A stretch of 64,000 nt of DNA from Antedon mediterranea (Eukaryota; Animalia; Echinodermata), in contig NC_092674.1 in the NCBI RefSeq assembly GCF_964355755.1, positions 21,824,001 through 21,888,000 on the forward strand, given 5' to 3'. The position numbers and the translations under genes were made by a program. The notes beneath the pieces were generated by a model, which saw nothing but the letters and a program-made list of their open reading frames with translations, did not search any database and was not told where the DNA came from. Positions 4,553 to 45,823 of the stretch are shown here, piece after piece. Within the stretch, counting starts at the first letter, position 1; each line of letters opens with the position of its first letter.

Positions 4553-5408
4553 AGTCAAGTCAAGTCAAGTCAAGTCAAGTCAAGTATCATTTATTATCAT
4601 TTGTTTTAGGAAAAACATAGAAATTCTGTTTGCTCTGTTGGCGGAGCACAATATCCAACGGACACAACACGAACTCAAAAACAAAAACATTACAAAAAAA
4701 AGTCTACATCATATTTAAGGCTCTAATAGATCCTGGAAAGAAACTATTTGTAAATCGTGCCTTATTGGCCTTAATAGAACGAAATCGCCGACCGCTGCGC
4801 ATCAACTGGAACATACTAGAGGCCGGATGAAAATGATCATCTTTGATAGCCACTGCCTTTTTCAGAAGACGATCCGAAAATATGTTCTCCAAAGGCAGTT
4901 GTGTAGATCCAATTATACGCGATGCGGTCTTGACTATTCTATTTAGGTCACGCTTTTCATTTTCGGTAGCGCTACCGAACCATACCGTTAAAGAATACGT
5001 TATTACACTCTCTATAACTGACCTATAGAAGGACGACATTATTTCAGAGTTTATACCAAATGATTTAAGTCTACGTAGAAAGTAGATTCTTCTTTGGGCC
5101 TTTCTAATAATGTTACGTGTGTTAATATGCCACTTCAGATCATTTGAAATATAAATACCCAAGAATTTAAATTCTTCTACAAACTCAACTGATATACCAT
5201 TAATAAATATTGGATATTTGACATTAAGTGATTTACGGAAATCAACAACCATTTCTTTAGTCTTAGATACATTCAAGAACAGATTTTTTTCGTTACACCA
5301 GTCTACAACTCGTTTAACTTGGTTGCGATAATTAGACTCATCACTGTCATCATTGATTAGACCTACAATGGTAGTATCATCCGCAAATTTGAAGAAAACG
5401 CTCCCCAA
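4553..5408 (-). mobile_element. 5'-truncated Rex1/Babar-like (CR1-group) non-LTR retrotransposon; RT C-terminal ORF 4704-5408 and (ACTTG)n 3' tail
   Basis: The ORF has FKFADDTTIVGLI, LNVSKTKEMVVDFRK, FKFLGIYIS, FYRSVIESVITY and RFTNSFFP motifs typical of Rex1/Babar RTs. A (CAAGT)n microsatellite at 4553-4585 marks the 3' end. Confidence 0.85.
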
Positions 5409-23199: not shown

Positions 23200-24089
23200 T
23201 GGAAGAAAATGTAGCCTACAACAGAACTATTAGAAAGAATTAATCGCAAAAGGGTTAGGCCTTAGCCAGATATACCACGGAGTTCAAATATCCCCCGCCA
23301 TTCCTCCTGATGGATTGAGGTGGCAGGCATCAAAGCGATTTTAAAATTGAATGGAAGCGCATCGAAAATAAATAAAAGATCTTTCTCGGAAGATTCATTG
23401 TGGAGGAAAATCTGACTTGCTGCATGCGTTTGCATGGTAGGTAGAAATCAACGTTCCGATAAAAATAAAATAATTCACAAATTCTTATCAGATAGATCTA
23501 CGTAAACGTGTGAAGTAGAAAGAGGTCTTATTTACAGTATATCAGTAGGCCTAATATATATTCGTATAAAATATCCTAATTTCCACAACTCAGGATTATG
23601 TCCATAATGATATCAATAGTAAGAATCTGTTATAGGCCTATGCGTAATTTTTTTTAATTAAGCCACTCATTTTTCATTATCATACATTAAATTCAATTAT
23701 ACCATACACAATTCAGTGATTATTTTACAGTTATTTTCTTATTTTCCCAATTGTCTTTTCTCTTACAGGTAATAACGTGGTACGTGCTTCATGATTGATG
23801 GTAAAATTAATTTATACCAGTAACAATAGATTATGGCAAGGCATTTCGGACCGGACGGAGTAGGCCTACTCCTTTAAAGTTGTCATCGGAGGAGAAGATT
23901 AGGTGGAAGAAATGCTTTCCATGGACTGCACCAGAAGTAATTTCTGGTGTCGAAGCACCATCAGAGCACAGCGCTATTTACGCGTTTGGATACATGTTCA
24001 GCCGCATATTTACCAAAACGAACAACATAAGAATACGGGAAACTGGCGAGATATGCATGCGGCGGCCGTCACCTGCAGAGCTAGCTTGA
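23200..24089 (+). pseudogene. Spliced protein-kinase remnant inside the TIR element
   Basis: A mini-exon at about 23595-23619 (CAG|GATTATGTCCATAATGATATCAATA|GTAAG) joined to the exon at 23769 gives YVHNDINSNNVV (catalytic-loop-like). It is followed by IDYGKA, WTAPEVI, SAIYAFGY and CMRRP. A stop and frameshifts are present. Confidence 0.7.
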
Positions 24090-24479: not shown

Positions 24480-26840
24480 GGGTACAACACTTGTAAAAAA
24501 AAATTGTTTTGTACAAAAACATTGACTGGGTACAAAAACGGAGGCAGGGTATAAAAACAGTGGCAGGGTACAAAAACACTGGCAGAGTACACAAACAGCG
24601 ACAGGGTACAAAAACGGTGGCAGGGTACAAAATCGATGGCAGCTGGGTACAAAAACAGTAGCAGGGTACAAAAACAGTAGCAGGGTACAAAAACAGTAGC
24701 AGGGTACAAAAACAGTAGCAGGGTACAAAAACAGTAGCAGGGTACAAAAACAGTGGCAGGGTACAAAAACGGTGACAGGGTACAAAATAGATGGCAGCTG
24801 GGTACAAAAACAGTAGCAGGGTACAAAAACAGTGGCAGGGTACAAAAACGGTGGCAGGGTACAAAAACGGTGGCAGGGTACAAAAACGATGGCAGATGGG
24901 TACAAAAACAGTGGCAGGGTACAAAAATAGTGGAAGGGTACAAAAACAGTGGCAGGGTACAAAAACGGTGGCAGGGTACAAAAACGGTGGCAGGGTACAA
25001 AAACGATGGCAGATGGGTACAAAAACAGTGGCAGGGTACAAAAATAGTGGAAGGGTACAAAAACGGTGGCAGGGTACAAAAACGATGGCAGCTGGGTACA
25101 AAAAAAGTGGCAGGGTACAAAAAAAGTGGCAGGGTACAACATCGATGGCAGTTGGGTACAAAAAATGAGCAGGGTACAAAAAATGAGCAGGGTACAAAAA
25201 CAGTGGAGGGTACAAAAACGGTGGCAGGGTACAAAAACGGTGGCAGGGTACAAAAACGATAGCAGCTCGGTACAAAAACAGTGGCAGGGTACAAAAACGG
25301 TGGCAGGGTACAAAAACGGTGGCAGGATACAAAAACGGTGGCAGGGTACAAAAACAGTGGCAGGGTACAAAAACGGTGGCAGGGTACAAAAACGATGGCA
25401 GGGTACAAAAACGATGGCAGCTGGGTACAAAAACAGTGGCAGGGTACAAAAACGATGGCAGCTGGGTACAAAAACGGTGGCAGGGTACAAAAACGGTGGC
25501 AGTGTACAAAAACAGCGTCAATGATTTTATACAATAGTTCGCGGGAAATCTGATTGCTGACCTTATACAGGAATAAATACTTAGTGGTTGTGATATTCCA
25601 TTTATTTAATTTAATGGGAAAGTATATCTTTCACAAAATGTCAAAAATATCTTTGTATGTCAGGCAGTGTTTAAAAGGCTGGAAGGCCCTGGTGGAAGGG
25701 TACAAACAGTGCCAGGGTACAAAAACGATGGCAGGGTACAAAAACGATGGCAGCTGGGTACAAAAACAGTGGCAGGGTACAAAAACGATGGCAGCTGGGT
25801 ACAAAAACAGTGGCAGGGTACAACATCGATGGCAGTTGGGTACAAAAAATGAGCAGGGTACAAAAACAGTGGAGGGTACAAAAACGGTGGCAGGGTACAA
25901 AAACGGTGGCAGGGTACATAAACGATAGCAGCTCGGTACAAAAACAGTGGCAGGGTACAAAAACGGTGGCAGGATACAAAAACGGTGGCAGGGTACAAAA
26001 ACAGTGGCAGGGTACAAAAACGGTGGCAGGGTACAAAAACGATGGCAGGGTACAAAAACGATGGCAGCTGGGTACAAAAACAGTCGCAGGGTACATAAAC
26101 AGTGGCAAAGTACACAAACAGTGGCAGAGTACAAAAACGGTGGCAGGGTACAAAAAAAGTGGCAGGGTACAAAAACGGTGGCAGTACAAAATCGATGGCA
26201 GCTGGGTACAAAAACGGTGGCAGGGTACAAAAACGATGGCAGATGGGTACAAAAACAGTGGCAAGGTACAAAAATAGTGGCAGGGTACAAAAACGGTGAC
26301 ATGGTACAAAAACGGTATCAGGGTACAAAAACAGAGACAGGGTATGACAAGCAGTGGTCTATGGTACAAAAACTTGTGTTGTATACAAAGTGTCTGGGAA
26401 AAAAGACGATGACAGTGGTACAAAAAACGGTGGCAGGGATACAAAAACGGTGGCAGGATACAAAAACGGTGGCAGGCTATAAAAACAGTCGCAGGGTACA
26501 AAAACAGTCGCAGGGTACAAAAACGGTGGCAGGGTATAAAAACAGTGGCAGGGTACAAAAACAGTGGCAGGGTACAAACACGATGGCAGCTGGGTACAAA
26601 AACTGGGGCATGGTACAAAAACAGTGGCAGGGTACAAAACAGTTGCAGGGAAGAAAAACGGTGTCAGGGTACAAAAACAGAGACGGTACGACCAAGCAGT
26701 GGTCTAGGATACAAAAACTTGTGTTGTATACAAAGTTTCTGGGAAAAAAGAAGATTGCAGGGATACAAAAACGGTGGCAGGGATACAAAACAGTGGCAGG
26801 GTACACACAATTGTGTTGTACTAAAACAGTGGCAGGGTAA
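24480..26840. repeat. 19/23-bp minisatellite (GGGTACAAAAAC(A/G)GTGGCA) in two blocks, about 24480-25517 and 25690-26840
   Basis: About 100 tandem units seen directly. The two blocks are separated by a 170-bp copy of sequence at 22635-22925. Confidence 0.95.
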
Positions 26841-28599
26841 AAAACATACACACTTATTTGTAGCATTTTACGAAAAAAAGTATCAGAGTAACATCAGCAG
26901 AGCTAAACAAATGATGAAAGGGTCAGAACATTTGACTCTGGCAGATAACAGATAACATTACTTTTCAAGAGTGATAAGAAAAAAGGAAACATATTATATT
27001 CAATTTGTTAACCTAAATATATCTTTCATTTTTAATTTAAGATAATTATTTACATAATGATAAAACTTTTTAATGTGTATTAATTTAAATTGGTTATCAT
27101 CACTTGGCGTTTATTTTTATTTATATGTTTATTTTAGGGTTCTTTCATAGGTCAATCATTTTTTCCATTCAAACTTAAAAATTGGCTATTTGTAGTTTAT
27201 TGTATTAATCTTTATGGTTTATTTTACATCATTTATATCTCAATGTATATTGCATTATTGTTCTTATCTTTGATTAAATATTAATATTATGTACTGTAGT
27301 AGGCCTATACACATTTTTAAAAATGCTCAACAAAGTCTCAAACCACATAAAATCTAAAAGTTGAAACTGAATATTTAATGGCCCATGAGAATTCTAGGTA
27401 GCCTGCGCAAAGGTCATCGAGGCCAAACTTAAGAGGATGACTCAAGCTCTTCCATGTGAATCATCTCAGGTTAGACCAACCTCCAGTGGGCAGGACTTGT
27501 AGTTAGAACTTGTGGCTCAAATGACACTCCAGGGCAATAAAATCACAATAACTTACAAAGCACTGACAGTAATTGCTTGTCAAAACCAAATTGCCTAACC
27601 GTAACGCTAACGTAGCCTGGTCCGCGTAATGATCTCAGTGGCCAGTCGGCATTGTTTCGGCGCTATATCCAAGCAGTGACAATCGAGTGAGAGTGGTGGA
27701 TGTTTGTGTCAACAAAGAGGTTTATCGATCTTGTGAAATTGTTGAAAGTAACGATAAAGCCGAAGAATCTAGAGCATAATTATTAGTTATGGCTTTAAAG
27801 ATATGTAATGTTTGAAACATAAGCCACGATAATGTTAAAAGAAGTTTAATCCATTGATTAATGATACAGGAAAATTGGTATGACTTGTACCTTGATTTTA
27901 TTAGGCGAATTTCATTAAGAAATTCTGAGGCCGACTGTTAAGACAGCGCAATATCCAAAAAGTGTCATTGCGCCCTCTGTTGTGGGTTAGCTTGTTGAAA
28001 AATAGCGATTGTATCGTCACAGTAAAGTTGATTATTTTTTAATAAATAGATGGATGTTGTTATAAACAATTCATGATTGATACTTATTTGCAAGTAAAGA
28101 TTCAACTAAACAAACCCAGCAACCCACCAAACAGAACAATTATTGTCGCTGACTAATGATGAAAATTCCCCCTACTATGTTAAATACTGTTATAGTGGGG
28201 AACCTAATGTTCCAAATATCAATTATGTAAGATTTTAATGCTCAAGTTGAGTTGTTGGCAGTTTTGGAATCCTTAGGACTAGTAGAATTCATTGCAACTG
28301 GTGGCCAATTTTTCCCGACCCTATTTTGGCCGCCATCTTGGATTTCAAAATGGCCCCCATTTTTTACTCAAAACTCATAGTAGCTCCTATTTTAAACAAC
28401 AGTCCTAAAATTTATAGCATTTATGTTACCAACCTCAACCCTGCAACCCTCCAAGTAAACACACTCACTATATTATAAAATATATTATATTTTGGTTTTT
28501 GTGAATAGGTTGGGAACCCCTCATGAATGTCAAAATAAACATGCATAATTCAGTAATCATATGCTTAGGTCTTGTCCAGGTCCCTAATTTCCAGAGGCG

Positions 28600-28677
28600 T
28601 GGCCATGTTTTCGAGAACTATTCATGTACACTCACGCATATAGACCCACTAGAGGGTGAGCGAGCAAACCCTCTAGT
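28600..28677 (+). mobile_element. Helitron-like 3' end (hairpin + CTAGT) just upstream of the first Zisupton exon
   Basis: Palindromic arms ACTAGAGGGT(gagcgagca)AACCCTCTAGT ending in CTAGT. Confidence 0.4.
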
Positions 28678-28722
28678 AATGAAATGAGAATTAACATTTA
28701 TAGTACACATTTATATTTTCAG

Positions 28723-31700
28723 AATTTTGGAGATATACTTTTGGTAAATTGTGGAAAAAATCGGTTACTGCTGAGAACACGCCTGATCACCAGGATAGCA
28801 AATGTGATATAGATGTACGAGTAAATGAAACTTTATCACAGAAAGAAGCTGTTAACGATGACTGTGGCAGGAAACTATTAAAGAAAAATTCAAGCATACA
28901 CTGTCAGAGAGGTTATGATGAAAGAGCGAAGCAGAATTTAAATCTCCTGCCAACTGTATGCGTTGACAAAGAGGAAGGTATTTTTGCTGTTCATAAAAAT
29001 GAGAAATCTGCTCATCCCATTCATGTTGTAAAAAGGACAATTGCCAAAGGAGATATGCCAATGAATTTGTTTTGTGAGGTGGAAGAGTGCATGATGGCAG
29101 TCAATCTGGCTCGCTACAGTGGAATAACATCCTTCGAATGTATACACCTTTTATCAGTTGCTGACAGTGAACCGCATCGACAGCAGGGAATGCTCAGTAA
29201 GGACAAGTTGCTAGAGTTGTCTCAATCTCAATCACAGCAGTACTCTAAGGAAATATTACATTCTGCAGATGCATTGAACCAGGCAGCTAGAACATGTGCT
29301 AAATGCAGTGTATATCCCATTTCGCAGATGACAGAAGATAACACATTTTTGTTCTTCTCAGTTTATTGCCCCACAGTAAGCTACTACAATAAGGTGAAAA
29401 GAGTGATAGTGCATTATAAGGCGATTGACAATTCATGGAATTGTAAATGTCCAATGGGTGAGCGGTCATGTGTACATAAAGTAATGGCAAAGTGGTATAT
29501 GTTAGAAAGTGCTCCGCAACTGTTAATGAAAACACTGACCACACCAACACAAACTGAACAAACATCTAAGCCAAATGCAAGCAATTATCCTCCACCTACT
29601 GCAATGAAAAGAAAAATGGTTTCCTATTGGTTAAACAATGCCAGCAAAAGAATACCGTATCCTGTTCCAAAGAAATTCACTCAAGTCAACTTAAATTCTC
29701 TGGATCTAGTTCCTACAGAAATAAGGTGTTCACAGTGTCCAGGAAACCCAACATTGGGTCTACGAAAACTGATAACAAGTCACGCTTCAATCATTACTAT
29801 GCATAAAATTATTAAAGGCAAGTTTATGGCAATGATATGTTCAAATCATGACAATTATAATAAAAAAGTAACACAATTTCTTTCTTCGAACACAAATTGC
29901 ATTGACATGTTTGAAATGGATGAAATTACTTATTAACAACTAGAACAGCCCTCTGAGAGTGCATATACCTCCCCCTACTGTAAAATTCTCCTACATAAGA
30001 TTTTTTTTTTTTGGTGTTTTAATGTTGTGTGTGATTAGGCTAATTTCACTACAACCTTGTGTATGCGAATTTCGTGTAATGGTTATGTAACCAGCCTTTC
30101 AACTAACAATAGTTTCAGTTGACTAACAATAGAACAGCAATGCCAAAAACAAATTGAAAAGAAGTCGGTTTTTTTTAAACTACTTGTATCCAAAAACCTG
30201 TACATTATTAAATCAAATTACAAATGCCAAATTATAACTCTTGCCTCTTAATTGTACCTTTTTTGGACAAGTAGTTCTTGAGAAAATGCCATTTCAGTTT
30301 ACTTGTTACTTTAAGACTGTTCACCGGCTTTTGAAAATTGTCTCCTATCTTTTAACACTAGTAGGTCTGAAAATAATACTAAAAGTGGTCCAGAATTGGG
30401 ATCGTGGTTCGGATTGCTTCCAATGGAGTGGTCCTTGACCACATATCGATCTGTATTTTCATTTTGGTAAAGATCTTGCAATAACTTTTTGAGTAGTCCT
30501 GCTAACAAACAGACACACGCAATCGACTACATATACCTACTTGTCGGAGGTAAAGTTAATTATTGTTAATAACAGATAATCAAACACTCCCTAATAACAT
30601 TGTAATTTGTGTTTGAATAATAATTGAAATAAAATAGTTGAAAATGCCACAACTATATAATTTTAAATTATCATTAATTATTTCAGATGTTAAATTGTAC
30701 ATCAGAGAGTGTACATTATGTTCCTTGCCTTACCGATATCAAGAGTACACGGACGGAATTCACAATTTCGATGACAACTGGTTAATTTCCTTGGAACTAC
30801 TTGTGTTTTTGCGCCACAATCGGATGGTGAGTTATCCCATCCCATGGACAATGAATACAAGGACTTGCATCGGCGGCGAGATAAAACGAGCTTGCCTATA
30901 ACAATGTATCTTGCCTCAGCCCTCTATAGACAGTTTCAAATCAACTGTTAAAATTTTAAAATCATTATCAAAAACAAATGTACTCATGTATACAGTAAAT
31001 CATATATGCAGCCTCATTGCTCTATTGACTCCTCCACGGTAGTTGCAAACAATTACAACAATATGTTGCTGAACTCGATTATTTTTAATTTCATCAAAAT
31101 CGGGCGACAGAAAACTTATTTTCTTTTAATACAACCATAGCTTTTAGGTATTTTATATTATTGAAAACATAAAATTTGAAGTATTAGAATTATTACATTG
31201 TTCCAAAACCATGTAGTGATGTGCAGTGCAACAATTGTTTTAAATACATGGCTATAGGCAGCATTTTTTTCCATGAATCTCCTTAATTTATTTATCTATG
31301 TGATCTGGTGATTGTCATCTACAGTACATCACCGGGCCAAATCAAATCTAAACTGCTGCTGGCCAGTTGCGATACATGACTGACCACACACTCGTGCTCG
31401 TTTTGAAAGTAGACGCATGCCATACTTTCTCTCACTTTTTTTTCAGAGTTATATGGCTCTCGATGGTGTACTTACTGCTTTAGAAAATATGATAAATGAA
31501 AAACTACCATCAAAGGTATTACTACGTGGTTTGGAGCACTTCGAGGCCTTGAGTGAACGATCTTATAACTTTACATGTGTTGCATGTGGTATTCATCCAC
31601 CTATCCTTATAATGGAAATGCAGAAAAACGCTTGCTTTTCATTGGATGGTAAGTTTGTAGAGAAACTATTAATAGGCACAATTCATTATTGTTGTTGGTA

Positions 31701-34700
31701 CACTTTTCAAAATTATTTAACATCATTTTCAAATTATAGTTTCAGAGTTAGAGCTTCCAGATCTAACAGATGAAAATGACTCTGTCGATATTGAGGACTT
31801 TTGGACAAAAGTGAAAAAAGAAAAGCTGATAAATGGGCTACTAATAAGTAAGTGAACATTTAATTATGTTACAGTTATCATTGTATTCACTCAAAACAAT
31901 ATTAATGCAGTATAATAATATTAACAATAATTACCAGCACATACAAAATAAGTTATCGAATGCCAAAATTGAGTTTCATTGGATCAGATGTTGAAAATAT
32001 TGACTATAATCTTCAACAGAGAATGAACGAAACCCATTAAAAGTCAAACCTACATATACAAATTGGGCCCCATTTATTGGTAGACGAACCTGCTCTGCTG
32101 TTAAAGCTATCAACACTGAACATCGAAAATTTGTGCGAGACACCTCTCAACTTGAAGTTGATTGCCGGGAGACTTGTAAAAAACAACTTTTAGAAAGGCT
32201 GCTTTCACCACATATAAAGGCAGGTTTTGTAGTTTTATAAGAACAGTAGCAGAAAAATTAATTAAATGACCCTTGTTTTTTTTTTTTCTTAGTACAATAT
32301 AGTTGAGTACAACTTTTTAGATTTGCGTATATTATTTTGTTCTAACTGTGGTACTTGTTTATTTCAACATCCAGAGACTTTTTAAAATTTAATTAAACCA
32401 AACAACATTTTATAAAACACAAATTTTGCAGGTTCATCAAGTGAAAGATTTGTGCAGGGTATGTGATGTGAAACCAACCGGGTCCAAGCTTGACATGGTT
32501 TTGCAAATACAGGGCAGCAGTGTATGGGGCACTTCAGGTAAACCTTTTCAGAAAGGCATTTATTTTTTGGGTGTATGGTAACAAATAAATAAATGCCACT
32601 TGATATAAAAAAAATACAACACAATTAATATCAAGAAGTTATAAAATACAGTAAAAATTATATCAAAATACTTTGTAAATTGTAGATCTTTGAAGTCATG
32701 AATTCTACTACAAATAGAAATGTGTTCTAATACAGTATTGTGTGTAATGCACTTATTCAAAGCGAGGCATTTATTTGAATAAATACGGTATGTCTAATTT
32801 TCTAGTAGTATTACAAACAGTGATATTGCTGATATTCTGGAAATATTGATATTTTCTTTGTTACTTAACAGGTGGTTGGCTCTCTGCAAGTTGTCCACAT
32901 CAGATTGTATATGGAGTAAAATTCTTGCTCCTGGCCGAAAGTCCAAGGGACTATGTAGACTTGATTATGTCTTTGGCAAAACAACCACCAATTATTGTAT
33001 GTGATATACCCCAGATGGTTTCGAGACATGGTAACCGACGTACAGATGGAGTTATGTTTCAACCAAACGAAGGAAGATTTGTGGAACCAACTGAGGAAAA
33101 CATAAAAGCAGCCAAAGAAGGGACACTGCAAGTTCATCTTAAGACACTAGATGATGTCTATCCCAACATGAATCCTACATCCGTCACTGTAGATACAAAA
33201 GCAACACTTTGCCTCTTCAATACTTTTCATCAATTTGATACAAAAATGGAAAGGGAAGTACTACGAAAAGTTTGCCTATGCCCACAATTAAAAGGAATGT
33301 TAAATTCCCAGGTTGCAGAGCAGCTCCACAGATCTAGAGATTTCTTGAACAGCATGAACCCATCATCACACATTTTCTCTGTTTTGAATATACTAGACAG
33401 CAACAACACATCATTAAACCAGATATATGTTTCAAATATGAAGAAAGTGTTTAAGAAAGAAATAATCATCGATGACTGTAGTAAAGCAGTCATAGATACA
33501 CAAAGTCACGGTACGTTTTTGCAACCATATAACAGTTTCAGGAATTGAAACCAGACATGATACAATTACCATCATTTTGTAGAGTGACATGTATGTTACA
33601 CTACAGTTCGTATCTAAAATTAACCCATTTATATTGCAAATAGCTCATAATCGTATACTATCAACATTTTATCATATGTAATAAAGGAAATAAACAATAA
33701 CCTCAATGAAAGTTTTCCTTTTTAAATTTCATGCTAAGAATACCAATTCCCTTTAGCCCTTATTTATATTTCACCATTGTTTTTTCCAGTTATACCAATG
33801 CCCAGCAACATAAAAACAGAGAAAGCCACTGAGCAGAATGACGATGTCACCCATTCTGGTCAGTTAAACTTATATTAAAAACAATTTTTTCGATCCAGTT
33901 TTTGGTCAAAGGAATAATTATTATGTGATATTAAAATGGCATATTAAAAAAATTGTTTTTAAATATTATATCAGGGGGACAGTACAGTATATCTTTAATA
34001 GGGGTTCTACTGTATTTGAGAACCATCTGTGGGCACGACCTAGTTGGTGTGAGCGTTCCATTCAAATAAACACAATGATAAACCAAAAATTAAATACAAT
34101 ATGTTTAATTTCATTATAGAAACTGGAGAAAGAGATGTACATTCAGAGGACATCAATAATATTTATATTCCCGAAAAATATATAAACGGTAATAGAAATA
34201 AAGTAACAAAAAGCTGAATACATAAAAACACATGTAAAGTACAATTGTAAATTTTTTTTTAAATTGTTAAATTATATGAAGTATATTTAAATATATAGAG
34301 CGTATGGCATCGGTTACCTGTGTCACATTTGAGGAACTCCAAATTGGCCATATAATTATAATTTTATAAATAATAATTTGCAAATGACGAAATATATAAT
34401 ATAGACAACTTGTGCTGTCATAGTAGGGCATAATTATGACCAAACCTGATTTTTTTCAATCTGAAATATATACAATGAACAATACAGTCCAAACAAGTAT
34501 CTAAGGACAGGAATGTTGTGTATGCACAGACAATTTTCAAAATAAAATATTGATAATCATCAATTTTAGATGAGGATGAAGATATAGCAACAGACGAAAC
34601 TGATGCTGTTGCTAAAGAGTGTGACTTCAATACAACACCAGAAACAAAAAATTTGCATCACATCATTGAATCACTCCCAGAATCATGGAATGATGATATG

Positions 34701-37700
34701 AATGGTAAGGAAAAAATTGATCTCTTTCTTATGTACAGTATTTTTAATTTATGCCTTATTTCCAGCTAACCCAGCTCTGAAAATTCAATGATGAAAAAGT
34801 TTTGTTATATATACATTTACATAAACATTTTTTTTTTCAACCAATTTTTGATCAAAGTGAATAACTTTCATGTGACATTAAAATGGCCTATTCAATAATT
34901 GTTTTCAGGGGGACAATACATCTTTAATGACGAGCAAGAACAAGATGAAGAAAATAATGATATTAAGGAAGAAGATGAAGAAGAAATCATGAATGAGAAA
35001 GAAAAACAAAATGAAAACAATAAAAAATCAACACATTTGACGCAAAGTAGGTTAACAATTATGTTATTGAGGTAACAATTAACTGACTTATACAAACTTT
35101 GTTTATGCCATTATAACAAATATTATATAACACCTAAATAAATTCCTGTCATTTGATTGGACGAATGTGGGTCACATGGCATGCAATAGTATGCACTATT
35201 AAACGATCGTTTAATAGTACTTTTTTTGTGTACGAAAAAAAAATCTTTTCGCATTTGGAAAATATTTTGTTTTATACTATTGCTTTTCAAAAAACAACAG
35301 CGCCACCTATTTTGTTTCTTTCCCGGCGATTTGAATGTTATGACTGGTTTTAGTACTTTTCTGGAGAGATATAATATGTACTAATTTAGATCGAAAAGAC
35401 ATTTAAATTAGCTTTAGATAATTTGTAGGATTTTGATAAATTAATGGGAACATCTCTACAAGACGTGGAATCCATATGGTGGAAACCATCATTAGCCTAG
35501 ATAAGTTCCAATTTTCTGTCGAAGTTTTGCCTTTCAGCCAAGCTAGTACTAGGTCTAGCCTAGGCCTGTTAGTATTAGGCTAAGGCCTAGCCTAGGCATT
35601 TTAGCCTTGCTAGGCTTAGGATTGTTTGGTCGTTTGTTGATATAATTAACACTAAAGTAGGTGTGTTTATAAAATACATATTTATTATACAGTAAATATA
35701 ACATTTAATATAATATTAAAAACCAAACGTTACTGTTTTAATCAATGTGAATGAAATGTAAATGTAGGCCTTGGCTAGGCCTACCTTTTATTTGATTCAA
35801 ATGACAGGATTCTATTTAGATGTTATATAAAACAAATAATGAATGTTTTATATTCGTGTAATGGTACAAATAATGGCATTTGGTGAATGATGAAAGGTTA
35901 AATATCAACTCGGCGTTGCCTCGTTGATATATAACCTTTCATCATTCACCTCATGCCATTATTTGTACCATTACACTCATAAACATTCATTATTTGTGTC
36001 TATGCCATTATAACAAATACTATCTATGCCATTATAACAAATACTATATTCTAGGTTTATGCTGTAAGTCATCCAATTGCTATGGTCTCATATTTTGAAA
36101 TATTTAAATTGTATTTCTTCTGCCATATTTTATTGTTATGCATTTTTCATTTGTATGTCTATGCTGTTTTTAAAGGACCCCATTGGAATTCAGTTGATTT
36201 TTCTTTCGACTTTATGGGCTATCCTTGGTTTCTTATTTAATGTATTTGCTTGTAAATTGTTTGTTTTTATATTGTCTAGTAATCTTATGTTGAAAGCGAA
36301 TAAAATCAAATCAAATCAAATCTTATTCAGATTGAACCAACCAATTTAATCTCTATGAAATAGTTCATTTGACATTTATTAAGTTTTCCTTTAAGCAGGC
36401 AGGACTCGACTTGTTTGTACTGTGTACTTGAGCAATTAATGGCTATTTTAATATTAAAATTATTGGCTTCTTACCTACTTATGTTTATTAATTATTTGTT
36501 ATAGGCTATGTTACTTTTGTTCCAACCAGGTAAAGGTAGCCTGAGTAGGCAGTGCAGTTTTTATTACATGCCAGGTTAGTTAAAAATCGAACCCACTATA
36601 TATTGAACTTAATAACAACATTGGATTATTATTATTTTCTTTTTAAAGATATATCAGCATTAACTGGTTTTCTGCAGACAAGACAAACTGAGATGAAACA
36701 AATTGAAGAAAGCCTTAACAAAATAAGGAAAGACGAATGGCTGAAATTGCCAAAGTTCAGCGTCAACCTGGATGATTTGCTGTCACTTATAAGTCCAGGG
36801 TGGATCAGTGATGCGGTAAAAATGTGCTATTTGTTAAATAAATAAATACATGCAAAATGCAAAGACAATACAGCATTATTACCTAATTATTTTGACACCA
36901 CAAATAATCACCTATCTACAGCAGCCAATTGACTGCACTCATTTTCTAATAATTTTTAAAAACATTTCAAACTAGAAAGAAGGGCACTTTATTTATTTAT
37001 TTATTACCATATTTACTGAGGGTAGCCTATCCAGTTCCTAATAGAACTGATCATTCAGGGCCCTCGATAAAACATACATACAGTACAACACATAACATAT
37101 TAAATATTCAAATGACATAAAATATATTAAAGGCTTAAAAATTTACAATGATTATATAAAATTCATATAAAAGTTAAAATCGTTGACAGATAAAAAAAAA
37201 TATATATATATATGCAAAGTGCATACCTAATGTATAATTCCCCTACATATTATTTCCCCTCGAGTGTGATTAGGCTATTTTTGCACTATAACCTTTGTGA
37301 ATGTGAGTTTGTTGTAATGGTTATATATCCTTATACATCCCTGGTTCAATTCCCGCTGAGGGTCTTTTTTAAAGATATTTAACATTTACTATTTATTTCT
37401 ATAGATCGTAAATGCCTACCTGAGTTTAATTGCCTTCCAAAAAAACTTGCAAGATGAGGGGCATGTGTTTGTATTACCGACACACATTGCCACAAGGTGG
37501 AACAACCCACACATTTCACCGTGGTTGGCAAAGAAGGTATTGTTTCACAGTTATTTGCTTTTTGTACCTACCGAAATTGAATTGTTTATTCTTTTTAAAC
37601 AATGGTCAGTTACAATTTAGTTTTTCTCTTTTTGATTATTCTGTATTATAGTAGTTAAAATGTCCATCTTTAAGCTTATTATTATTATTTTTAATTCAAG

Positions 37701-40700
37701 AATATATTGAATATTTATATATTATTTGTGTACATTCATATTTTTTATCACTATTTAGGCCTGCAAAATGTTATGTTGGAGAAACCTGACTCTAAACGCA
37801 AATTTGCTCAAAACTTTGTGATCAAATTCTGTGACATGGATAGGATTAGAATAATAATTATATATTTTGGACTTAAAAATCCATTTGCCATGTTAACGAT
37901 AAATAATCAACTGCATATAAATGATTTTTTATTTCTTCTACATTTTATTATTATTATATATATATTATTATATGGTTCAGCTTATTTTTTGATCATGATT
38001 CAATTTTTGTTTTAATGTTTATGATTGAAGAATCAGATGTTTTTTTTTGTTCAAAGTGAACATTTTAGAGAACATGTCATCAGTAAATTAAGTTTATCTT
38101 TGTTCAACCAATTTCCTCTCTTTAGTTTCCATGTGAAAAGCTTAAACTGTGCAGCAAATTACCTGTAATTAGAAATTCAATCAATGTACAATATGTCACT
38201 TTACCATTATACTTACTTATACACACATAAATTTTTATCAATTTATACAGGTTGTCCTGTTTAAGTATGAGTGGATTCTTGTGCCAATTCATGTGCCACA
38301 ACACTGGATCCTACTTGTGGCACATGTGCCATCGAAATCAGTGAGTGTGTTGGATTCTTTACAGGGTAATAATGATGCACACATCCAGTACTTCAGGTAG
38401 TTTATTTTCTTTAATGTTCTAAACATTGAATCATTATGCCAACAATATATTAATATCTCAACCAATCTTTTGATCTAACATGAAGTTTTGGTTTATAATT
38501 TACATAAAACTAAACGTTACACAGTTATTTAAAATAATATGTAATATTTTTATCCCATTTAAGCAATTATATGGAAAAAAGGTCATCAGAAACAGGTGAA
38601 CTAGGTGGCCCATGGAAACAAATTGAAATGAATACGTGCAAACAAGCTGATGACCACAGCTGTGGTTCTTTTGTTATGTTGGTACGTACTAGGTTTTTAA
38701 AATTTAGATGTATAGTCTGTAAATTATAAGATACGATTATTATCTTTAAAACACAGAAAACCATTTTGCTTGGAAGTTTGTTACACATTTAAATTAAACA
38801 AGATAACAACTATACTTACTATAAATCTTTTAAAGGTAAAGTGTATAGACGGTTTTATATGTATAAATATATATGCTATATATTGACTAACAATAAAAGT
38901 ATAGTACTGTATTAAAAAATGTGGTAAACCAATGTTGACATACTAGACATTTTAGAAAACGGATCAGCTGAACGTCAACACACCTCTGTGTTAAAATAAC
39001 AAAATTGTAATTAATAATAATAGTAACTTTAAATTGATAGATCATTATACGTTTTGTTAAACATAATAATAATAATAACTAGATTTGAACTCGTCACTAC
39101 GGACGAGTTAGGTTATCCGCAGCGCAAACGCCACGTTCACATCATACGTTAGAATATTGCGCACAGAAAAACGATTATGCGATTGAAAAAATATTAGTGC
39201 GCTCTCTATTTTGTGTCACGTCTAAGTATATACAGTATAACACTGTATACGTACTACATACAGTGCAGAATAGGTGAAAATAAGTGACCAAAGTTATTGA
39301 CGCTTTTGGACATGATGACGTCACAAAAAATTTAAAAATGGTAAATCATGCGAAAGATAATTGATTGACCTAGACAATATAAAAACATGGGGGGAAAATG
39401 AAATACGGATAAGTGGAGATGCGCTCTATTAAATGTGATGAGCTATGACAGAAGAGAAAAAAATCCTCTATTTTATATTCGAGTGGCCATACGATGACGT
39501 CAAAATATTAGGTTAGTCATATCAATTCATGATTCGATATCTACAACTCATCTACTTTTAGAATATGTAATAAAAAATAAAATTCACCTTGTAGTTTAGA
39601 ATCTATGACTGATTAAAAAAAGGCATAATTTTGACAAATTGTTGAACTTTTTCATCAAAAACGCGCGCAAATTATCCAATTCCACGTGCTCGTATGACGT
39701 GATTTTAAGTCGAAATTGTTTAAAAATTGGTAAAATTACTAGAAAAGGCTGAAAAACATAAATCACGCAAAAAAAGATGTGCGAGCGTGGACATTTTTGA
39801 AATGCTCAAAATGACATGAAACGCGTAGAAAGTTGATTAGAAGTTGATTTTTCTCATTTTGAAATTTTAAACGCGCGTGCACACGTCTATGTTAAATACG
39901 CGAAATTCATAAAATCGCGCGTAACTTACGCTGCGTGACTCTAAAGTAAAAAAACGAACTTTCCTGCACTTCTACAGATAGAGGTCAATCTTCTGACAAA
40001 GTTATACAATGTAATGTTGATAAGAATTTGAGACAGACTGACCTCTAGAGGTCAGTCTGTTTGATGATAGATCGTCATTATTTCTGAAGAAGCTGTCCGA
40101 TCAGGACAGCGAAACTGTCAAGGTTAGTTTTTACTAATTATTGGTTTGGAAAAAAGAATATTTTCAAGATACATACACTGTATATGTTATATACAGTGTA
40201 GCATAGATGAAATTACGAGACCCATCTTTTAAATCCAATTATTAACACGATGACGTCATCAAATTGACATATAAAGATAACTATTTTAGAAGATAATTAT
40301 CTAAATAATTACATTAATACAAATTTGAAGAATTTTGGGCACGTAAAAGTCAGATGCGCTCTCGTTTAAACGCAATGAACTTTTACGCAAGAGATGAAAA
40401 TACGACTTTTTTATTCAACTGGCTATATGATGACGTCACAACATCTGATTTGAAAAATGTTCACATTAATTCGTATCTACAATCCAATAGCTTCCAGAAA
40501 ACGTTTTAATTATGATTATCACTTTTTATTCTGACGAGCTATAACAGATTGAAATTTACTGTAAAGATGAAAATAGGTGACCCACGTTATTTACATTTTT
40601 AGACATGATGACGTCATAACAATTAAAATATTTTTAACTCATGCGAAAGATAGTTGATTGACGTAGACAATAATAAAATCTTGGGGGAAATGAAATTCGT

Positions 40701-41967
40701 ATGAGCGAGATGCGCTTTGTTGAATGTGATGAGCAATAACAAAATAGACAAAAATCCTATTTTTTACATTTGTGTGGCCATACGATGACGTCATAACATC
40801 CGAGAGTTAAAAATTCTGCATAAGTTCATATCTACAATTTATCTTCTTGCATAATAAGTTAAAAATATTGGGGGTCACCTTCGATCATGAAGAGCTATAT
40901 TGGCATTATTTTGACAATATTTTCTAACTTTTTCAACAGAAACGCGCGCAAATGGTCTAAAATGGTCTGATTTTAAGTCGAAATTGTTTAAAAGTTGGTA
41001 AAATTACTAGAAAAAACCTGAAAAAACCTGTTTTTTTAACGCTACGTACGCACCGCGCGCGTAAAATATTTTGCGCGAGCGGTAATTTTTGACATGCTCA
41101 AAATGTCATGATCAGCGTAGAAAGTTGATTAGAAATTAATTTTGCAAATATTAAAATTTTAAATGCGCGTGCGCGCGTAACTTCTTGTGAAACATGCCAT
41201 TTTTAATCCATAGAAAGTTCGCCCTTGATATGACTTAAATGTTCACCAAGTGCGAATACAAAATGACTTTTGGTTTATAATCTATGATCAATCATTGAAA
41301 TTCATAAAATCGCGCGTAACTTACACTGCGCCACTCTAACGTCATAAAAAATATGGAGGTGCACAACTTCATGCAAATGTCCATATGTTGACTAAGTTAT
41401 GAAATGTTATATTTACAAGAATGACAGATATGCGTGACGCAAAATTCTGGGAAAGAAAGAAGAATAACAAAGAAGATAAAAAAGATCGTGACAATAACAA
41501 GGGTTATCCGCAACTACTAAGTTGCGGATAACCAAAAAAAAAAGATTGTGACAATAACAAGGGGTTATCCGCCAAGTGCGGATAACTAATAAAGTATATC
41601 TTAGTTTTCAGTATGAATGACAAATATTATGTACTGTATTTGTCATTTTTTTGTACTGTAATATAGAAATTATCTTTTTTTTTATCTTTTTCAGAATGCT
41701 TACTTCATCAGTGAAGGGGTGCATCCCTCTTTAATCACACCAGATATGGCAGCCACAATGAGGGTATGGGTCCTAAAGAAATTACTAGGATATGGCAAAA
41801 AGGGAACCCAAGTGCAATGTGATGCGGAACCATGTCTGGGGACAGATGACACATGGATTGGATGTGATGTGTGTGGCCGGTGGTTCCACAAAAATACTTG
41901 TACCACCACCATTGAAACTCCATCTACTGAATGGGAATGCGATATTTGTGTTGCAAGATATCGATAA
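28723..41967 (+). CDS. Zisupton / HMGXB3-related multidomain protein (about 1245 aa from 16 exons: 28723-29817, 30687-30826, 31447-31648, 31740-31847, 32020-32219, 32432-32537, 32872-33510, 33790-33858, 34120-34188, 34570-34704, 34909-35046, 36649-36815, 37405-37536, 38251-38396, 38564-38681, 41695-41967); 5' exon(s) not found
   Basis: All junction phases are compatible and there are no internal stops. SWIM CKCPMGERSCVH; CTLCSLPYRYQEYTDGIHNF; HFEAL..FTCVACGIHP; FW; NWAPFIG..NTE; SAP-like VKDLCRVCDVKPTGSKLDMV; VWGTSGGWLSASCPHQIVYGVKFLLLAESPRDYVD; LNSQVAEQL; Ulp1 GWISDAIVNAYL, HWILLV, LDSL, QADDHSCG; PHD WIGCDVCGRWFH..WECDIC. Confidence 0.9.
34820..34923. mobile_element. Kolobok MITE right end overlapping the acceptor of Zisupton exon 34909-35046
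   Basis: GGGGACAATACATCT|TTAA matches the TIR+TSD of the 20845-21000 MITE. A similar end lies at about 33890-33999, and a complete small copy at about 53543-53639. Confidence 0.6.
35125..36000. mobile_element. Crypton-like non-autonomous element with an ~80-bp terminal hairpin
   Basis: Near-perfect palindrome at 35832-35997 centred on CAACTCGGCGTTGCCTCGTTG. 5' TCATTTGATTGGACGAA..GGTCACATG. Flanked by direct repeats TATGCCATTATAACAAATA at 35104, 36001 and 36025. Confidence 0.55.
39078..41590 (-). mobile_element. Composite Helentron-like element in the last Zisupton intron
   Basis: Reverse complement of the 2622-4140 family: ACTAG + hairpin ACTCGTCACTACGGACGAGT + GGTTATCCGC at 39078-39120, GGTTATCCGC..GCGGATAAC inverted repeats at 41502-41587, and an internally duplicated body. 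Confidence 0.7.
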
Positions 41968-44830
41968 TGTCACCTATGTTAATGAGTTGATGGAGAGAAT
42001 ATTTCATGAATATTGACTGCTCTACAGTATTTGTAATGAGGCAAGTCATTTTTTCATTGAATGAAATTTATTCATAGTAAAATTATTAACAAATACTAGG
42101 CTGGGAATCTAGGCCATTCAAAACAGCAGTGCTCCGATTTTAGACACGGAGTAGACCAGTTATAAATGGCGTGCACAACAAGTTGATCAATCAATAAAAT
42201 TTCATGACAAAAATAGGCTTAAACTTTTTTTTAAACCTGAATGTGAAATGATCACTATTAGATATCACTTTTTCATTAGGTATGGCTAATTTTAAATTAC
42301 ATGTGATGTGTAATGAAAACCAAGTATAAAATCAGGTGTTATACTCAATATAAATCATGTTGCAATACTTTCCTACATGATTATCTCGGGAAATGAAAAA
42401 TTAAAGCTGTTACACTAATTCGATGTCATTAGTGTGTTACAATATAAACTTTTATGGTAGTTTCTGTATAACAACTTGTTTGCGTCGCAACTAATTTACC
42501 TGCAAAGCAATGGTTGTTTGATTTTATTTTTTACTTGCAATGCGAAAACAGGGCATATCGAGGATCTTGATAGTTAAACTTATACTAAAGTATTTTCACA
42601 CACTGAAATTGTTATTATAAATATAACCAGATAAATGTTACCAATATTTGAATGAATTGTAAAACCAATAAGAAAAACTGTATTTATCTTAATAAGGAGA
42701 CCTTTTTCATTGTACATTTAAACATTTAGAAAATTAAAATGTTGACCTTTTGACCTTGGTCACGTGACTTGTTTTATTGTTAAATATAGATATCGATGTA
42801 ATAGGATAAAATGATCAGTATTACATTCCCTTTCCGATGATACTATGGATGACAAAGTTCAGTGTGGAATGTCGGCCATTTCAAAATACAAAATGGCGGC
42901 TGAAGGAATGGTCGAAAAAAATGGCACCTAACTTTTTTTAATTCAGCAACTCAAGAATAACAAAGTTAGCCAATAAAATCTATTTTGGCACAAATATCAA
43001 GCTGGAGCTAGTTTTCCTTACATATGTGACTGTGCTACTTTGATATCTGGAGCTCGGCATACTGTTGTTAGATTGCCTTGTTCAGAGGTACTGTAAGATT
43101 TAGTTAAAAGTTAAAATTGTTATTATATATTTAAAATGTGTGAAAATTGTAATGAATCTTTCATTTGATGTATAGATTTGTAATACTTCAGTTTCAGTAA
43201 TTGTTTCCCAGTTGCTTTGCTTTGTGTGTTATTTGTTTTTTGTAGGCTACTTTTTAAAAATATTTTAGCAGTTCCAAGGAATGTTACTGTTATAGTACAA
43301 TTGGTATTCAGAATTGTTCAGCTTTACTATATACCTTGATGGAAATTTATTAAGAAATATCCAATTTAATGTATGTAAATATAATATGACAAAAATAGAC
43401 ATTTTATTGTTTTTCCAATACTATGTACTTTAATAACACGTTCAATTTCTGAAACCTATATGCTACAGTACTTTTGTACATAATGTTTTACATAAACTAA
43501 AGTCTTGATCTAATAGCTATGCATTTTTAAGTTTCTAGGATAACCACACCCAGGACAACTACCCAACTAAACCCCAGGCCCTTTCAATATCTAAGATACT
43601 GCTGTATTGCCTGGTTAATCATTTTCATAGTGGGTAGTTTTCATTTTGGTATTTTATCCTATAGGATAATTGTTTTTCATTATCGGGTAATTATGGATAC
43701 ATATATTTTATGACATGGTACAAAATACAGTTCTACTCAACTTCTGATTCTGAGATTTGAATAAAGAACCAGAGCCTAGTACAGTTGCTACAGTATGATT
43801 TCTTTTTTCTACAGTTATTAGTTTTCAAAAAGACTTTAAGTCTTTATGATGGGTGGGTACTGTAATGCTTAAATTAATATTTTTGTTAAAAGAAAAACTA
43901 AGAAAAAAATTAAGCATAAATAAATGAAGAGGTAATGTGGAGCCAGTGGGTTAAAAAATAAATAAATAAATATTATATTTTGTTTTAAATTTAAAATTAT
44001 TGTTATTGCTGTATTCAAAGATCTAAATAAAATTTAACTAACAACATACAGAACTACTGTACACAATTTAATAAAACATATTAATGTGTGAAATTGCACA
44101 TTTAAATTAAAGAACAAACAATACTTGAGAAAAGGATTTTGGTAATCAAATGTAAATTATTAATATTTATTTTAATTGATTGGTGGAAATACCATAAATT
44201 TGATAAATATAGGTATTATGATAAAATGAAAATGAACAAATATAATTATGTATTAATTTTCTGATGAACAGTAACAATAATAACAATTAAAGGCTTAAGA
44301 CTTTAGAAATTTGGAACAACTAGAAAGTGGTAAAACCAATCGTGGGGAAAAACTTTTTGCATGCTAATGTTGAGATACTACTGTATATTCTCAACCTAAA
44401 GGGTCTCTCAAAATTATTTTTTAGGCATTGTAATTTTATTTTATTATACAAATGTATTATTTCTGGCTGCCGCTTATGGGAGGTGAATTCAACAACAAAA
44501 AATGTGTCCATGTAGACCGGCAGCCCAGATAAATTTGGTTAGATGAAATAGGTTACGATTCTACCATTTGTTTTGGCCTTCACGATCGATCGAAAGAGGA
44601 TGAATCACGGAAGAAAAATTAAAATATCAATCCACGCGCAATGCATGTTGAGATTAGAAACGACTTATTTGTCACATTTATAACCATTTAAAAACAAAGA
44701 AAGTTATCGCAATAGGATCATATAGTATTTATTTTTACAATAAATATAGTTTGTGACCTTAAATTAGGTCTAAAAAACGTAGGGAATGGGGCTTTAATAA
44801 ATGTCTCTTTCTCATCGTCTAAAATACTAA

Positions 44831-45756
44831 CGCCCGTATTCTTAAACCGGACTTTAGTCGTAGTTCAAAGTTCGACTTGAAAAAGTTGTAGTTCGAGCTA
44901 TTACTTCAAATTCGATTCAAAAACGAAGTAGTCGAAGTTTGCAGTTCGACTTAATGAAGTCGAGCTTTTAGTCGAGTTGCACACGTCTGGGTAACAAAGG
45001 CTATACATTGGCCAATGACAAGAGAGTATTGAGGAGCAGACAAAATTTTGCGCATTGATATCACTTTCCATTTTCTTACAAAACTTTTTACGCATCAGGA
45101 CTATATACATGAAAAATAATTTTAATCGTTAATTATTAGAACAAGATCAGTATTAATTTAACAGTGAAGTACTTTTGATTAACAACAAACAAAATCTTCA
45201 AAATATATTTAGGAACCATGGCGGTACGGTAACTTCCATTTTTCTAGGCCTCCAACAAAGTATGATCGCGACGAACCATGCACTTCCTAGCATGACAAGA
45301 AAGCGCTAGGCCCCCTAAACATTCCATCGCGTGGTGAATTGCCGCATCTCCCATTGTCGCTATGGCGTGACGTAGTTCAAGTCGGACTTGCGCAAAGAAA
45401 ATAATGTAATTTGTATACAGTTGTAAATAAAGATGATTTTCATTATTATAACTTATACCAATGTATATTTAATTAAGCTAATATAAATATAGATATTTCA
45501 TTCTTCAATATCTGGCCAATATAACAACTCAATGACTGTTCCGTTTTTTATAAACATCGTTTAAAAACCATTTAGTCGAACATTTAGCCTGCCCCCTCCA
45601 GGACTAAAAAAATCGATCAAAATCCGTCTCGATTTAGTCGAGGTTGGCCTGATTTAGTCGGTGATTTAGTTGAAGTTCGGTTTATGAATTAAAATGACGT
45701 CATTTTTTTAGTTTTAGCTCGAACTACGACTAAAGTCCGGTTTATGAATACGGGCG
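44831..45756. mobile_element. PIF/Harbinger-type MITE
   Basis: TIR CGCCCGTATTC(T/A)TAAACCGGACTTTAGTCGTAGTTC at both ends. TAA TSD at 44828-44830 and 45757-45759. Confidence 0.85.
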
Positions 45757-45823
45757 TAAGACTAAAGGAAGCCATCATAATGCTCCTAGGGTTGCATTAA
45801 ACTATAATGCTAAACCAGGGCCT

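What the first reader, a model, noticed from the sequence alone, without database searches (positions are those of the whole stretch)
28192..43058. Zisupton transposon with a fully spliceable SWIM-SAP-KDZ core-Ulp1 protease-PHD protein in an invertebrate genome
Seen: 16 exons join in phase with no stop (3737 nt plus 1 nt from a missing upstream exon, about 1245 aa). They encode a SWIM finger, Cys clusters, a SAP-like helix pair, the AESPRD/NSQVAEQL core, an acidic linker, a Ulp1/C48 protease with His (QHW), Asp (LDSL) and Cys (QADDHSCG), and a C-terminal PHD finger. The ORF track shows only scattered pieces of this. Known: Zisupton, described from fish, is a multi-exon DNA transposon with SWIM and Ulp1 domains, subterminal inverted repeats and 8-nt TSDs; HMGXB3 derives from it. 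Inference: a transposon coupling deSUMOylation with a histone-tail reader could counter SUMO-dependent TE silencing. This Ulp1+PHD version in a non-fish host is the best candidate for an under-described system here.
Basis: partly seen in the sequence, partly recalled or inferred. Interest (0 to 1): 0.85.

Follow-up and report, generated by a model that had tools for sequence, protein, structure and literature searches.

The report
Crippled Zisupton transposon keeping SUMO protease
This is a 14.9-kb cut-and-paste jumping gene in a feather star whose spliced gene joins a likely disabled transposase to an intact, predicted SUMO-removing protease and a predicted histone-reading finger; it is a variant of the known Zisupton family, whose members appear to swap such protease tails.

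Summary
The 16 exons join without a stop (3737 nt, 1245 aa). An NCBI model from the crinoid Antedon mediterranea equals aa 604-1245. Ten of 15 introns are spliced in contigs of a second sample. The element has an exact 8-bp target duplication and about 170-bp degenerate inverted ends. A fish homolog folds like an IS256/Mutator DDE transposase; the tail folds like SENP SUMO proteases, triad intact.

(1) The transposase core looks crippled: Glu at the first DDE Asp, NxxH for DxxH, two in-frame deletions, N-terminal zinc-finger exons missing, about five-fold faster evolution than its same-species sister, yet the frame stays open. (2) That sister carries OTU instead of Ulp1, with the switch at an exon boundary. 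Among 55 relatives the tail holds Ulp1 (11), Josephin (6), USP (4) or OTU (3), often with PHD.

Ulp1+PHD is not unique: it occurs in other invertebrate Zisuptons and is published for Ginger1; this scan also found Ulp1-PHD-SprT Zisuptons on other DNA. Verdict: new variant of a known kind; the anti-silencing role is untested.

The parts
28184..28191 (.). Left copy of the 8-bp target-site duplication
   Evidence: Identical to 43059-43066. The left edge is fixed independently: a unique X1 contig ends at 28220, one word-length into the repeat, and an X7 contig starts matching at 28193.
28192..28679 (+). Left end of the element; multi-copy; degenerate inverted repeat 28193-28361 with a palindromic GCCGCCAT/AAAATGGC core
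   Evidence: X1 summed depth 2525 against 19-30 for unique contigs; inverted match to the right end
28723..29817 (+). Exon 1 (aa 1-365): decayed C2H2 finger, first in-frame Met at aa 112, SWIM-like CxC-x6-CxH (aa 241-252), start of CxC4; GC donor
   Evidence: the X5 contig 28629-29469 enters it unspliced
30687..30826 (+). Exon 2: CxC4 cysteine cluster
   Evidence: Pfam CxC4 E 1.7e-5; junctions not seen in X5
31447..31648 (+). Exon 3: first strand of the RNase H-like core; first catalytic position is Glu469 (Asp in 36 of 47 homologs)
   Evidence: intron 3 spliced in X5
31740..32537 (+). Exons 4-6 (31740-31847, 32020-32219, 32432-32537): insert in the core with the SAP helix pair; 12-aa in-frame deletion after aa 610
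   Evidence: the homolog model matches SAP structures at this position
32872..33510 (+). Exon 7: catalytic core with Asp662 and Glu767; DxxH motif reads NxxH (aa 734-737); 4-aa in-frame deletion after aa 773
   Evidence: 507 relatives at E<=0.001
33790..35046 (+). Exons 8-11 (33790-33858, 34120-34188, 34570-34704, 34909-35046): acidic low-confidence linker; similarity to the OTU sister ends at the end of exon 10 (aa 921)
   Evidence: introns 7-11 spliced in one X5 contig
36649..38681 (+). Exons 12-15 (36649-36815, 37405-37536, 38251-38396, 38564-38681): Ulp1/C48 protease with Trp1019, His1085, Asp1102, Gln1143, Cys1149
   Evidence: Pfam; PDB sequence hits SENP5/2/1/3; fold hits SENP3/2/5/1, E 3.5e-12
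39077..41590 (.). Nested high-copy repeat in intron 15 (two related ~1.3-kb units; Helentron/HINE-like by recalled end motifs); not part of the Zisupton gene
   Evidence: organism B contigs join across this region (38947 to 41689); spliced out in X5
41695..41967 (+). Exon 16: end of the protease, PHD finger (Cys1197-Cys1240, all eight zinc ligands, Trp1209 and Trp1218), stop codon
   Evidence: Pfam PHD E 6e-4; intron 15 spliced; model confidence low
42477..43058 (+). Right end; multi-copy; degenerate inverted repeat 42868-43037
   Evidence: X1 summed depth 4258 in the bin 42604-43207; a unique X1 contig ends at 42506
43059..43066 (.). Right copy of the 8-bp target-site duplication
   Evidence: chance about 0.006 given the left edge +-1 and the right edge +-25

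Best explanation
This is a transcribed and spliced copy of a Zisupton DNA transposon, bounded by an 8-bp target duplication, whose cut-and-paste core is likely disabled while its intact Ulp1 tail is predicted to strip SUMO from proteins near DNA bound by the element's protein, with the PHD finger likely docking on histone H3. Shown: ends, duplication, exon structure, open frame, RNA joints, intact protease triad, altered DDE/DxxH residues, missing N-terminal fingers, faster evolution of the core. Inferred: an ancestor like the OTU sister P0002 exchanged everything after exon 10 for a Ulp1-PHD tail. In intact family members the tethered isopeptidase would remove SUMO or ubiquitin from the transposase-DNA complex or from silencing and repair factors beside it, protecting it from tag-directed removal; four unrelated protease folds can fill the slot. 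This lineage then lost catalysis, would move only with a transposase supplied in trans, and keeps its frame open because the downstream protease is still of use to the element family.
For: TSD and inverted ends; multi-copy ends; 10 of 15 junctions. A fish homolog model matches the ISCth4 (IS256/Mutator) transposase best, Z 10.1, rmsd 3.6, 215 aligned, followed by Tn5 and integrases. The tail matches SENP3/2/5/1 ahead of the NEDD8 protease and SENP5/2/1/3 by sequence. Relative-rate test in aa 413-830: 38 window-private against 7 sister-private changes (chi2 21; outgroup P0003), 29 against 9 and 31 against 10 with two other outgroups; no excess in aa 71-330 (6 against 9; Fisher p 0.002 and 0.076). 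Branch lengths 0.23 against 0.044. Window plus P0002 is 100/100, nested with another OTU carrier at 97/95; OTU carriers are rejected as one clade (p-AU 0.0013), USP carriers also (0.018). Catalytic Cys motifs are retained in most tails. Intronless single ORFs L002, L003 and L005 show that such fusions are not gene-model artefacts.
Against: No activity was measured. That Asp-to-Glu at the first DDE position kills the enzyme is recalled from other DDE enzymes, and P0005 and P0104 also have Glu there. Junction 13/14 inside the protease, and junctions 1, 2, 5 and 6, were not seen, and introns 1 and 13 are read into, so a full-length mRNA is not shown. Other copies with this same core were not found: exon 7 is at single-copy depth in X1. 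Selection at the level of an element family on a protein acting in trans is theoretically weak. The deep branches of the tree are poorly supported. Pfam KDZ and SWIM profiles do not hit.
Confidence: 0.55

Rival explanations
1. Early host domestication: the insertion is fixed and the host keeps the protein as a DNA-tethered, histone-reading SUMO protease, as HMGXB3 is said to derive from Zisupton (recalled).
For: The frame is open over 1245 codons despite the decay of the core (about 3.5 stops expected in the core alone by hand calculation, P about 0.03; 5-6 expected over the whole frame). All splice sites are intact and a 2.5-kb nested insertion is spliced out. A second sample has the same right junction (X5 contig 43004-43808). 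The N-terminal DNA-binding part is not accelerated.
Against: The ends and TSD are still well preserved. Tail sequence occurs at more than single-copy depth in X1 and in organism B runs. The RNA shows retained introns. No ortholog protein was found in two searches with the tail.
Confidence: 0.2
2. An active autonomous Zisupton of a divergent subfamily; the substitutions are tolerated or adaptive after the tail swap.
For: Open frame, spliced RNA, exact TSD, Asp662, His737 and Glu767 kept; Glu at the first acidic site occurs in 2 other homologs.
Against: Seven private changes at conserved core positions plus two deletions where 87-96 of about 112 and 128 of 133 homologs have residues; N-terminal fingers missing; no second close copy of the core.
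Confidence: 0.13

Closest known systems
Zisupton DNA transposons (KDZ group; Bohne 2012 and Iyer 2014, neither held; known through passages of PMC12730594, PMC11343200, PMC9297572, PMC12062965)
   Same: 8-bp TSD, inverted ends, multi-exon gene of about 1200-1400 aa, SWIM-like motif + CxC4 + transposase core; close homologs in fish, some with the F-box+CxC7 tail described for platyfish Zisupton; Ulp1 tail (recalled for fish Zisupton; Pfam C48 on several homologs).
   Different: Crinoid host; PHD after Ulp1; core apparently disabled and N-terminal fingers lost; the nearest sister carries OTU; Pfam KDZ does not recognise this clade.
Ginger1 and Mutator transposases with C-terminal Ulp1, Ulp1+PHD or OTU (PMC2836005, passages read)
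   Same: Same tail logic: Ulp1 or OTU as alternatives, Ulp1+PHD in Ginger1-9_HM; a USP (C19) on another transposase is also mentioned; the authors propose a role of ubiquitin/SUMO removal in transposition.
   Different: Different transposase (Gypsy-like integrase or MULE); Josephin and SprT-like tails were not in the passages read.
Helitron-borne VTD/OTU deubiquitinases (PMC9741609, passages read)
   Same: Interchangeable deubiquitinase classes fused to a transposon protein; repeated domestication; activity shown for Helitron VTDs.
   Different: Rolling-circle elements and a different protease family; no SUMO protease.
Human SENP1/2/3/5 and yeast Ulp1
   Same: Fold (TM up to 0.87 by target), His-Asp-Cys triad, oxyanion Gln, Trp lid residues.
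   Different: Only 19-25% identity; fused to a transposase and a PHD; specificity untested.

Membership tests
Zisupton (KDZ) | 8-bp target-site duplication | tested here: met
   left edge fixed; feature per PMC12730594
Zisupton (KDZ) | Terminal or subterminal inverted repeats | tested here: met
   99 of 167 identical, score 109 against background max 75 of 632; degenerate
Zisupton (KDZ) | CxC4 cysteine cluster | tested here: met
   Pfam CxC4 E 1.7e-5 on exon 2, just below the cut-off because the exon is split; above the cut-off in homologs
Zisupton (KDZ) | SWIM zinc finger | tested here: inconclusive
   CxC-x6-CxH motif conserved in homologs; no Pfam SWIM hit
Zisupton (KDZ) | KDZ transposase domain (PF18758) | tested here: inconclusive
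   No Pfam KDZ hit in 55 or 15 proteins, fish homologs included, and none among the 25 of 34 families shown for 50 more; but the fold is a DDE transposase and NCBI names homologs HMG domain-containing 3-like
Zisupton (KDZ) | Homology to fish Zisupton-type proteins | tested here: met
   P0023 (Leuciscus; F-box + CxC7) E 1.4e-34, P0036 (Labeo) E 2.4e-32. Repbase consensus proteins were not available.
Autonomous DDE transposon | Intact D-D-E triad and C/DxxH motif | tested here: not met
   Glu469 for Asp (Asp in 36 of 47), Asn734 for Asp (136 of 142); Asp662 and Glu767 kept; positions assigned from the homolog model; motif per PMC3706591
Autonomous DDE transposon | Several full-length copies with different TSDs | not testable with these tools
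   No host genome held; ends are multi-copy, core single-copy by depth
Ulp1/SENP (C48) protease | Fold and His-Asp-Cys triad with oxyanion Gln | tested here: met
Ulp1/SENP (C48) protease | Cleaves SUMO rather than NEDD8 or ubiquitin | not testable with these tools
   SENP1/2/3/5 rank above NEDP1 by fold and NEDP1 is absent by sequence: a hint only
PHD finger (H3K4me reader) | C4HC3 ligands and aromatic cage | tested here: inconclusive
   Eight ligands and two Trp present; Pfam score below the cut-off; model pLDDT 33-42; binding untested

The most novel reading that the evidence does not exclude
Animal Zisupton transposases have an exchangeable C-terminal slot filled by any of four unrelated ubiquitin/SUMO isopeptidase folds (Ulp1, OTU, USP, Josephin), often with a PHD and sometimes a SprT-like protease. 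This locus records a fresh OTU-to-Ulp1 swap at an exon boundary followed by loss of transposase catalysis, leaving a selected, DNA-tethered, histone-reading SUMO protease: a counter-silencing helper or a host gene in the making.
Probability: 0.3. Interest if true: 0.72.

Novelty: new variant of a known kind. Interest (0 to 1): 0.42.

Why it matters
Transposases of several superfamilies carry SUMO or ubiquitin proteases, and their substrates are unknown. Here two close relatives in one species (77% identical in the core) differ mainly in carrying OTU or Ulp1-PHD, and the wider family also uses USP and Josephin. That is a natural swap experiment for asking which tag the host puts on a transposase or its chromatin, and whether removing it aids transposition or counters silencing. 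If selection on the tail of this core-disabled copy is confirmed, it would also be a domestication caught early.

Tried and rejected
Host genome not held, so copies and empty sites could not be counted. tblastn of the sister's first 133 residues found nothing in the window at E<10, so the missing exon is not nearby. An in-frame ATG-bearing candidate mini-exon at 28523-28655 with a GT donor exists (worked out by hand; the script test was off by one base), but it has no homology, and X5 reads through it unspliced; not adopted. Foldseek on the homolog model gave no match at E<=0.001 (ISCth4 rank 4, E 0.35); the wide VIA search resolved it. Two protein searches with the tail found no close relative; longer proteins were not searched, so the donor of the tail is unknown. 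The ESM Atlas lists three Ulp1+PHD clusters of 303, 64 and 88 members at 0.93-0.95. The alignment truncated P0002, so its private-change lists were replaced. No run is on record as RNA; X5 is RNA by inference from GT..AG joints that X1 contigs cross unspliced. Lack of exon 7 cover in X6/X7 is a hole and not proof. Josephin carriers are not rejected as one clade (p-AU 0.16). A search of viral contigs was not completed. A KDZ profile search on loci was not possible. Literature searches listed no paper on Zisupton with OTU, USP, Josephin or PHD tails, but the two founding papers are not held and may describe some of these; one search was swamped by the name Josephine. Supplements of PMC12730594 (Zisupton sequences) were not read.
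Full report
Observation. Joining 16 exons by coordinates gives 3737 nt plus one base, 1245 aa, with no internal stop; introns 1 and 5 are GC-AG and the rest GT-AG. A search with exon 7 returned P0001, an NCBI model from the crinoid Antedon mediterranea, which equals model aa 604-1245 exactly; this names the likely host. Contigs of run X5 (another sample and study than X1; RNA by inference) show GT..AG joints at 10 of the 15 introns: 3, 4, 7-12, 14 and 15. The shorter sides at introns 4 and 14 are only 29 and 30 nt. One 1411-nt contig runs from exon 7 through exon 12 and on, so the core and the start of the protease lie on one contig. Introns 1, 2, 5, 6 and 13 were not seen spliced; a contig reads through the intron 1 donor, and the long contig appears to run into intron 13. 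X1 contigs cross introns 2-5 and 7 unspliced, as DNA should.

Ends. The same 8-mer flanks the element at 28184-28191 and 43059-43066. The left edge is fixed independently: a unique X1 contig ends at 28220 and an X7 contig starts to match at 28193. The first 170 bases match the reverse complement of the last 200 at 99 of 167 positions, score 109 against a maximum of 75 in 632 background windows; with edges so bounded, an exact 8-mer has a chance of about 0.006. Both ends are multi-copy (X1 summed depth 2525 and 4258, against 19-30 on unique contigs), while exon 7 is at single-copy depth. The element sits just after a Bel/Pao remnant (DUF5641, E 2.4e-4). Intron 15 holds a nested high-copy repeat that organism B contigs join across.

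Family. Exon 7 has 507 relatives at E<=0.001, of which 150 were listed. Named ones come from hemichordates, amphioxus, nemerteans, a mussel and fish, and two are called HMG domain-containing 3 or 3-like. A model of the fish homolog P0036 (pLDDT 78) best matches the IS256/Mutator-type ISCth4 transposase (Z 10.1, rmsd 3.6, 215 aligned), then Tn5, Mu and integrases, with a SAP domain inserted in the core. Asp173 on the first strand, Asp375 after the fourth and Glu482 on the following helix make the expected triad; they correspond to window positions 469, 662 and 767. CxC4 is detected; SWIM is present as a motif only; Pfam KDZ hits none of 55 and 15 proteins, fish members included. Papers give 8-bp TSDs and inverted ends for Zisupton (PMC12730594, Introduction and passages), SWIM + CxC4 + KDZ as its layout (PMC11343200, passages), multi-exon invertebrate members (PMC9297572, passages) and an F-box + CxC7 tail in fish (PMC12062965, passages), which P0023 and P0028 carry. 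I file it as Zisupton. The founding papers were not held, so Ulp1 in fish Zisupton and the origin of HMGXB3 are recalled. Passages of PMC3424704, PMC7599744, PMC5751038 and PMC5718144 added nothing.

This copy's core looks crippled. It has Glu at the first catalytic Asp (Asp in 36 of 47 homologs) and Asn in the DxxH motif (Asp in 136 of 142; motif per PMC3706591, passages). It also has changes at Lys473, Glu569, Arg638 and Asn740, a 12-aa deletion after the SAP and a 4-aa deletion after the catalytic Glu. About 135 N-terminal residues with zinc-finger motifs in the sister P0002 have no counterpart in the window, and the next finger is decayed. Against P0002, the core (aa 413-830) has 38 against 7 private changes with outgroup P0003, and 29 against 9 and 31 against 10 with P0031 and P0018. 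Residues 71-330 show no excess (6 against 9, 10 against 10; Fisher p 0.002 and 0.076). Yet there is no stop or frameshift. With a nonsense-to-missense opportunity of about 0.06, neutral decay of that size would give about 3.5 stops in the core alone (hand calculation, P about 0.03). This is modest evidence that the frame is held open by selection on what lies downstream.

The tail. P0001 matches SENP5, 2, 1 and 3 by sequence (E 5e-11 to 6e-10) and SENP3, 2, 5 and 1 by fold (E 3.5e-12), ahead of the NEDD8 protease; His1085, Asp1102, Gln1143 and Cys1149 are in place. The PHD has all eight ligands and two tryptophans but was modelled poorly. The sister P0002 is 77% identical in exon 7, shares the linker to the end of exon 10, and then carries OTU. 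Of 154 proteins, 55 had tails of 120 aa or more and were scanned: Ulp1 11 (the window's P0001 included), Josephin 6, USP 4 (one with Ulp1 as well), OTU 3, F-box 3, PHD-type 8, SprT-like 1, no family 17. Catalytic Cys motifs are mostly kept. Metagenome loci L002 and L003 are intronless 1520- and 1530-aa ORFs with intact DDE and DxxH, Ulp1, PHD and an HExxH protease, and L005 has OTU + PHD motifs. On a 42-row tree of the core (13 short-tailed rows left out; 33 labelled, 10 of them by motif or BLAST rather than Pfam) the window pairs with P0002 at 100/100, inside an OTU group at 97/95. Tail type changes 8 times against 14.0 in shuffles (0 of 500 as low). OTU and USP carriers are each rejected as one clade (p-AU 0.0013, 0.018), Josephin carriers are not (0.16); deep branches are weak. 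Tails are therefore inherited but swapped repeatedly, and an OTU-to-Ulp1 swap is the simplest reading for this lineage.

Mechanism. Shown: structure, RNA joints, intact protease, altered core. Inferred: intact members use the tethered isopeptidase to remove SUMO or ubiquitin from the transposase-DNA complex or nearby silencing and repair proteins, with the PHD docking on H3; this copy would no longer cut DNA but still supplies the deSUMOylase (0.55). Rivals are host domestication (0.2), an active divergent element (0.13) and an unselected chimera or dying copy (0.12). Organism B contigs match exon 16 at about 96% with no cover of exon 7 at 90%, which I cannot explain and which fits a chimera or tail-only derivatives.

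Novelty. Ulp1, Ulp1+PHD and OTU as alternative transposase tails, and a USP on another transposase, are in print for Ginger1 and Mutator (PMC2836005, passages); interchangeable deubiquitinases are in print for Helitrons (PMC9741609, passages). Ulp1+PHD clusters are common in the ESM Atlas, and this scan noted Ulp1-PHD-SprT Zisuptons elsewhere. My eight searches listed no paper on OTU, USP or Josephin tails in Zisupton, within a library that lacks the founding papers. The locus is a new variant of a known kind; its interest lies in the same-species OTU/Ulp1 pair and in the disabled core with a kept protease.

Noticed in passing
P0046, P0062, P0067, P0078, P0084, P0122: Zisupton cores fused to Josephin deubiquitinase domains (nemerteans, a mussel, unnamed contigs); Cys motif matched in 5 of 6; I found no paper on Josephin in a transposase.
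   Followed up: partly
L002:689-5248, L003:414-5003, P0012: Intronless Zisupton ORFs ending in Ulp1 + PHD + SprT-like HExxH metalloprotease.
   Followed up: partly
P0029 (amphioxus), P0155: P0029 carries both USP and Ulp1 after the core; P0155 is a 2097-aa single protein with a USP-like region and about 650 further residues without a Pfam family.
   Followed up: no
window 27633-27776: Bel/Pao retrotransposon remnant (DUF5641) just left of the element; more Pao-like and LINE RT fragments at 18678-21580 and 4704-5414.
   Followed up: partly
window 39077-41590; also 2645-4124 and 11458-12992: Very high-copy repeat made of related ~1.3-kb units with a terminal hairpin (Helentron/HINE-like, recalled), nested in intron 15.
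   Followed up: partly
window 24511-26805: Tandem array of a 19-bp unit, about 110 copies, upstream of the element.
   Followed up: no
window 23811-24089: Short reading frame resembling a protein-kinase C-lobe fragment (by eye).
   Followed up: no
window 43004-43808 and 45824-50832 (minus strand): An X5 contig spans the right junction; a minus-strand multi-exon host gene lies to the right, so its 3' UTR may run antisense into the element's end.
   Followed up: no
window 33885-33959 and 34832-34905: A 75-bp duplicated multi-copy segment in introns 8 and 10, the second just before the tail-swap point.
   Followed up: no
window 44827-45760 and 35123-35830: Small MITE-like elements with inverted arms (58 and 34 bp), the second inside intron 11.
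   Followed up: no
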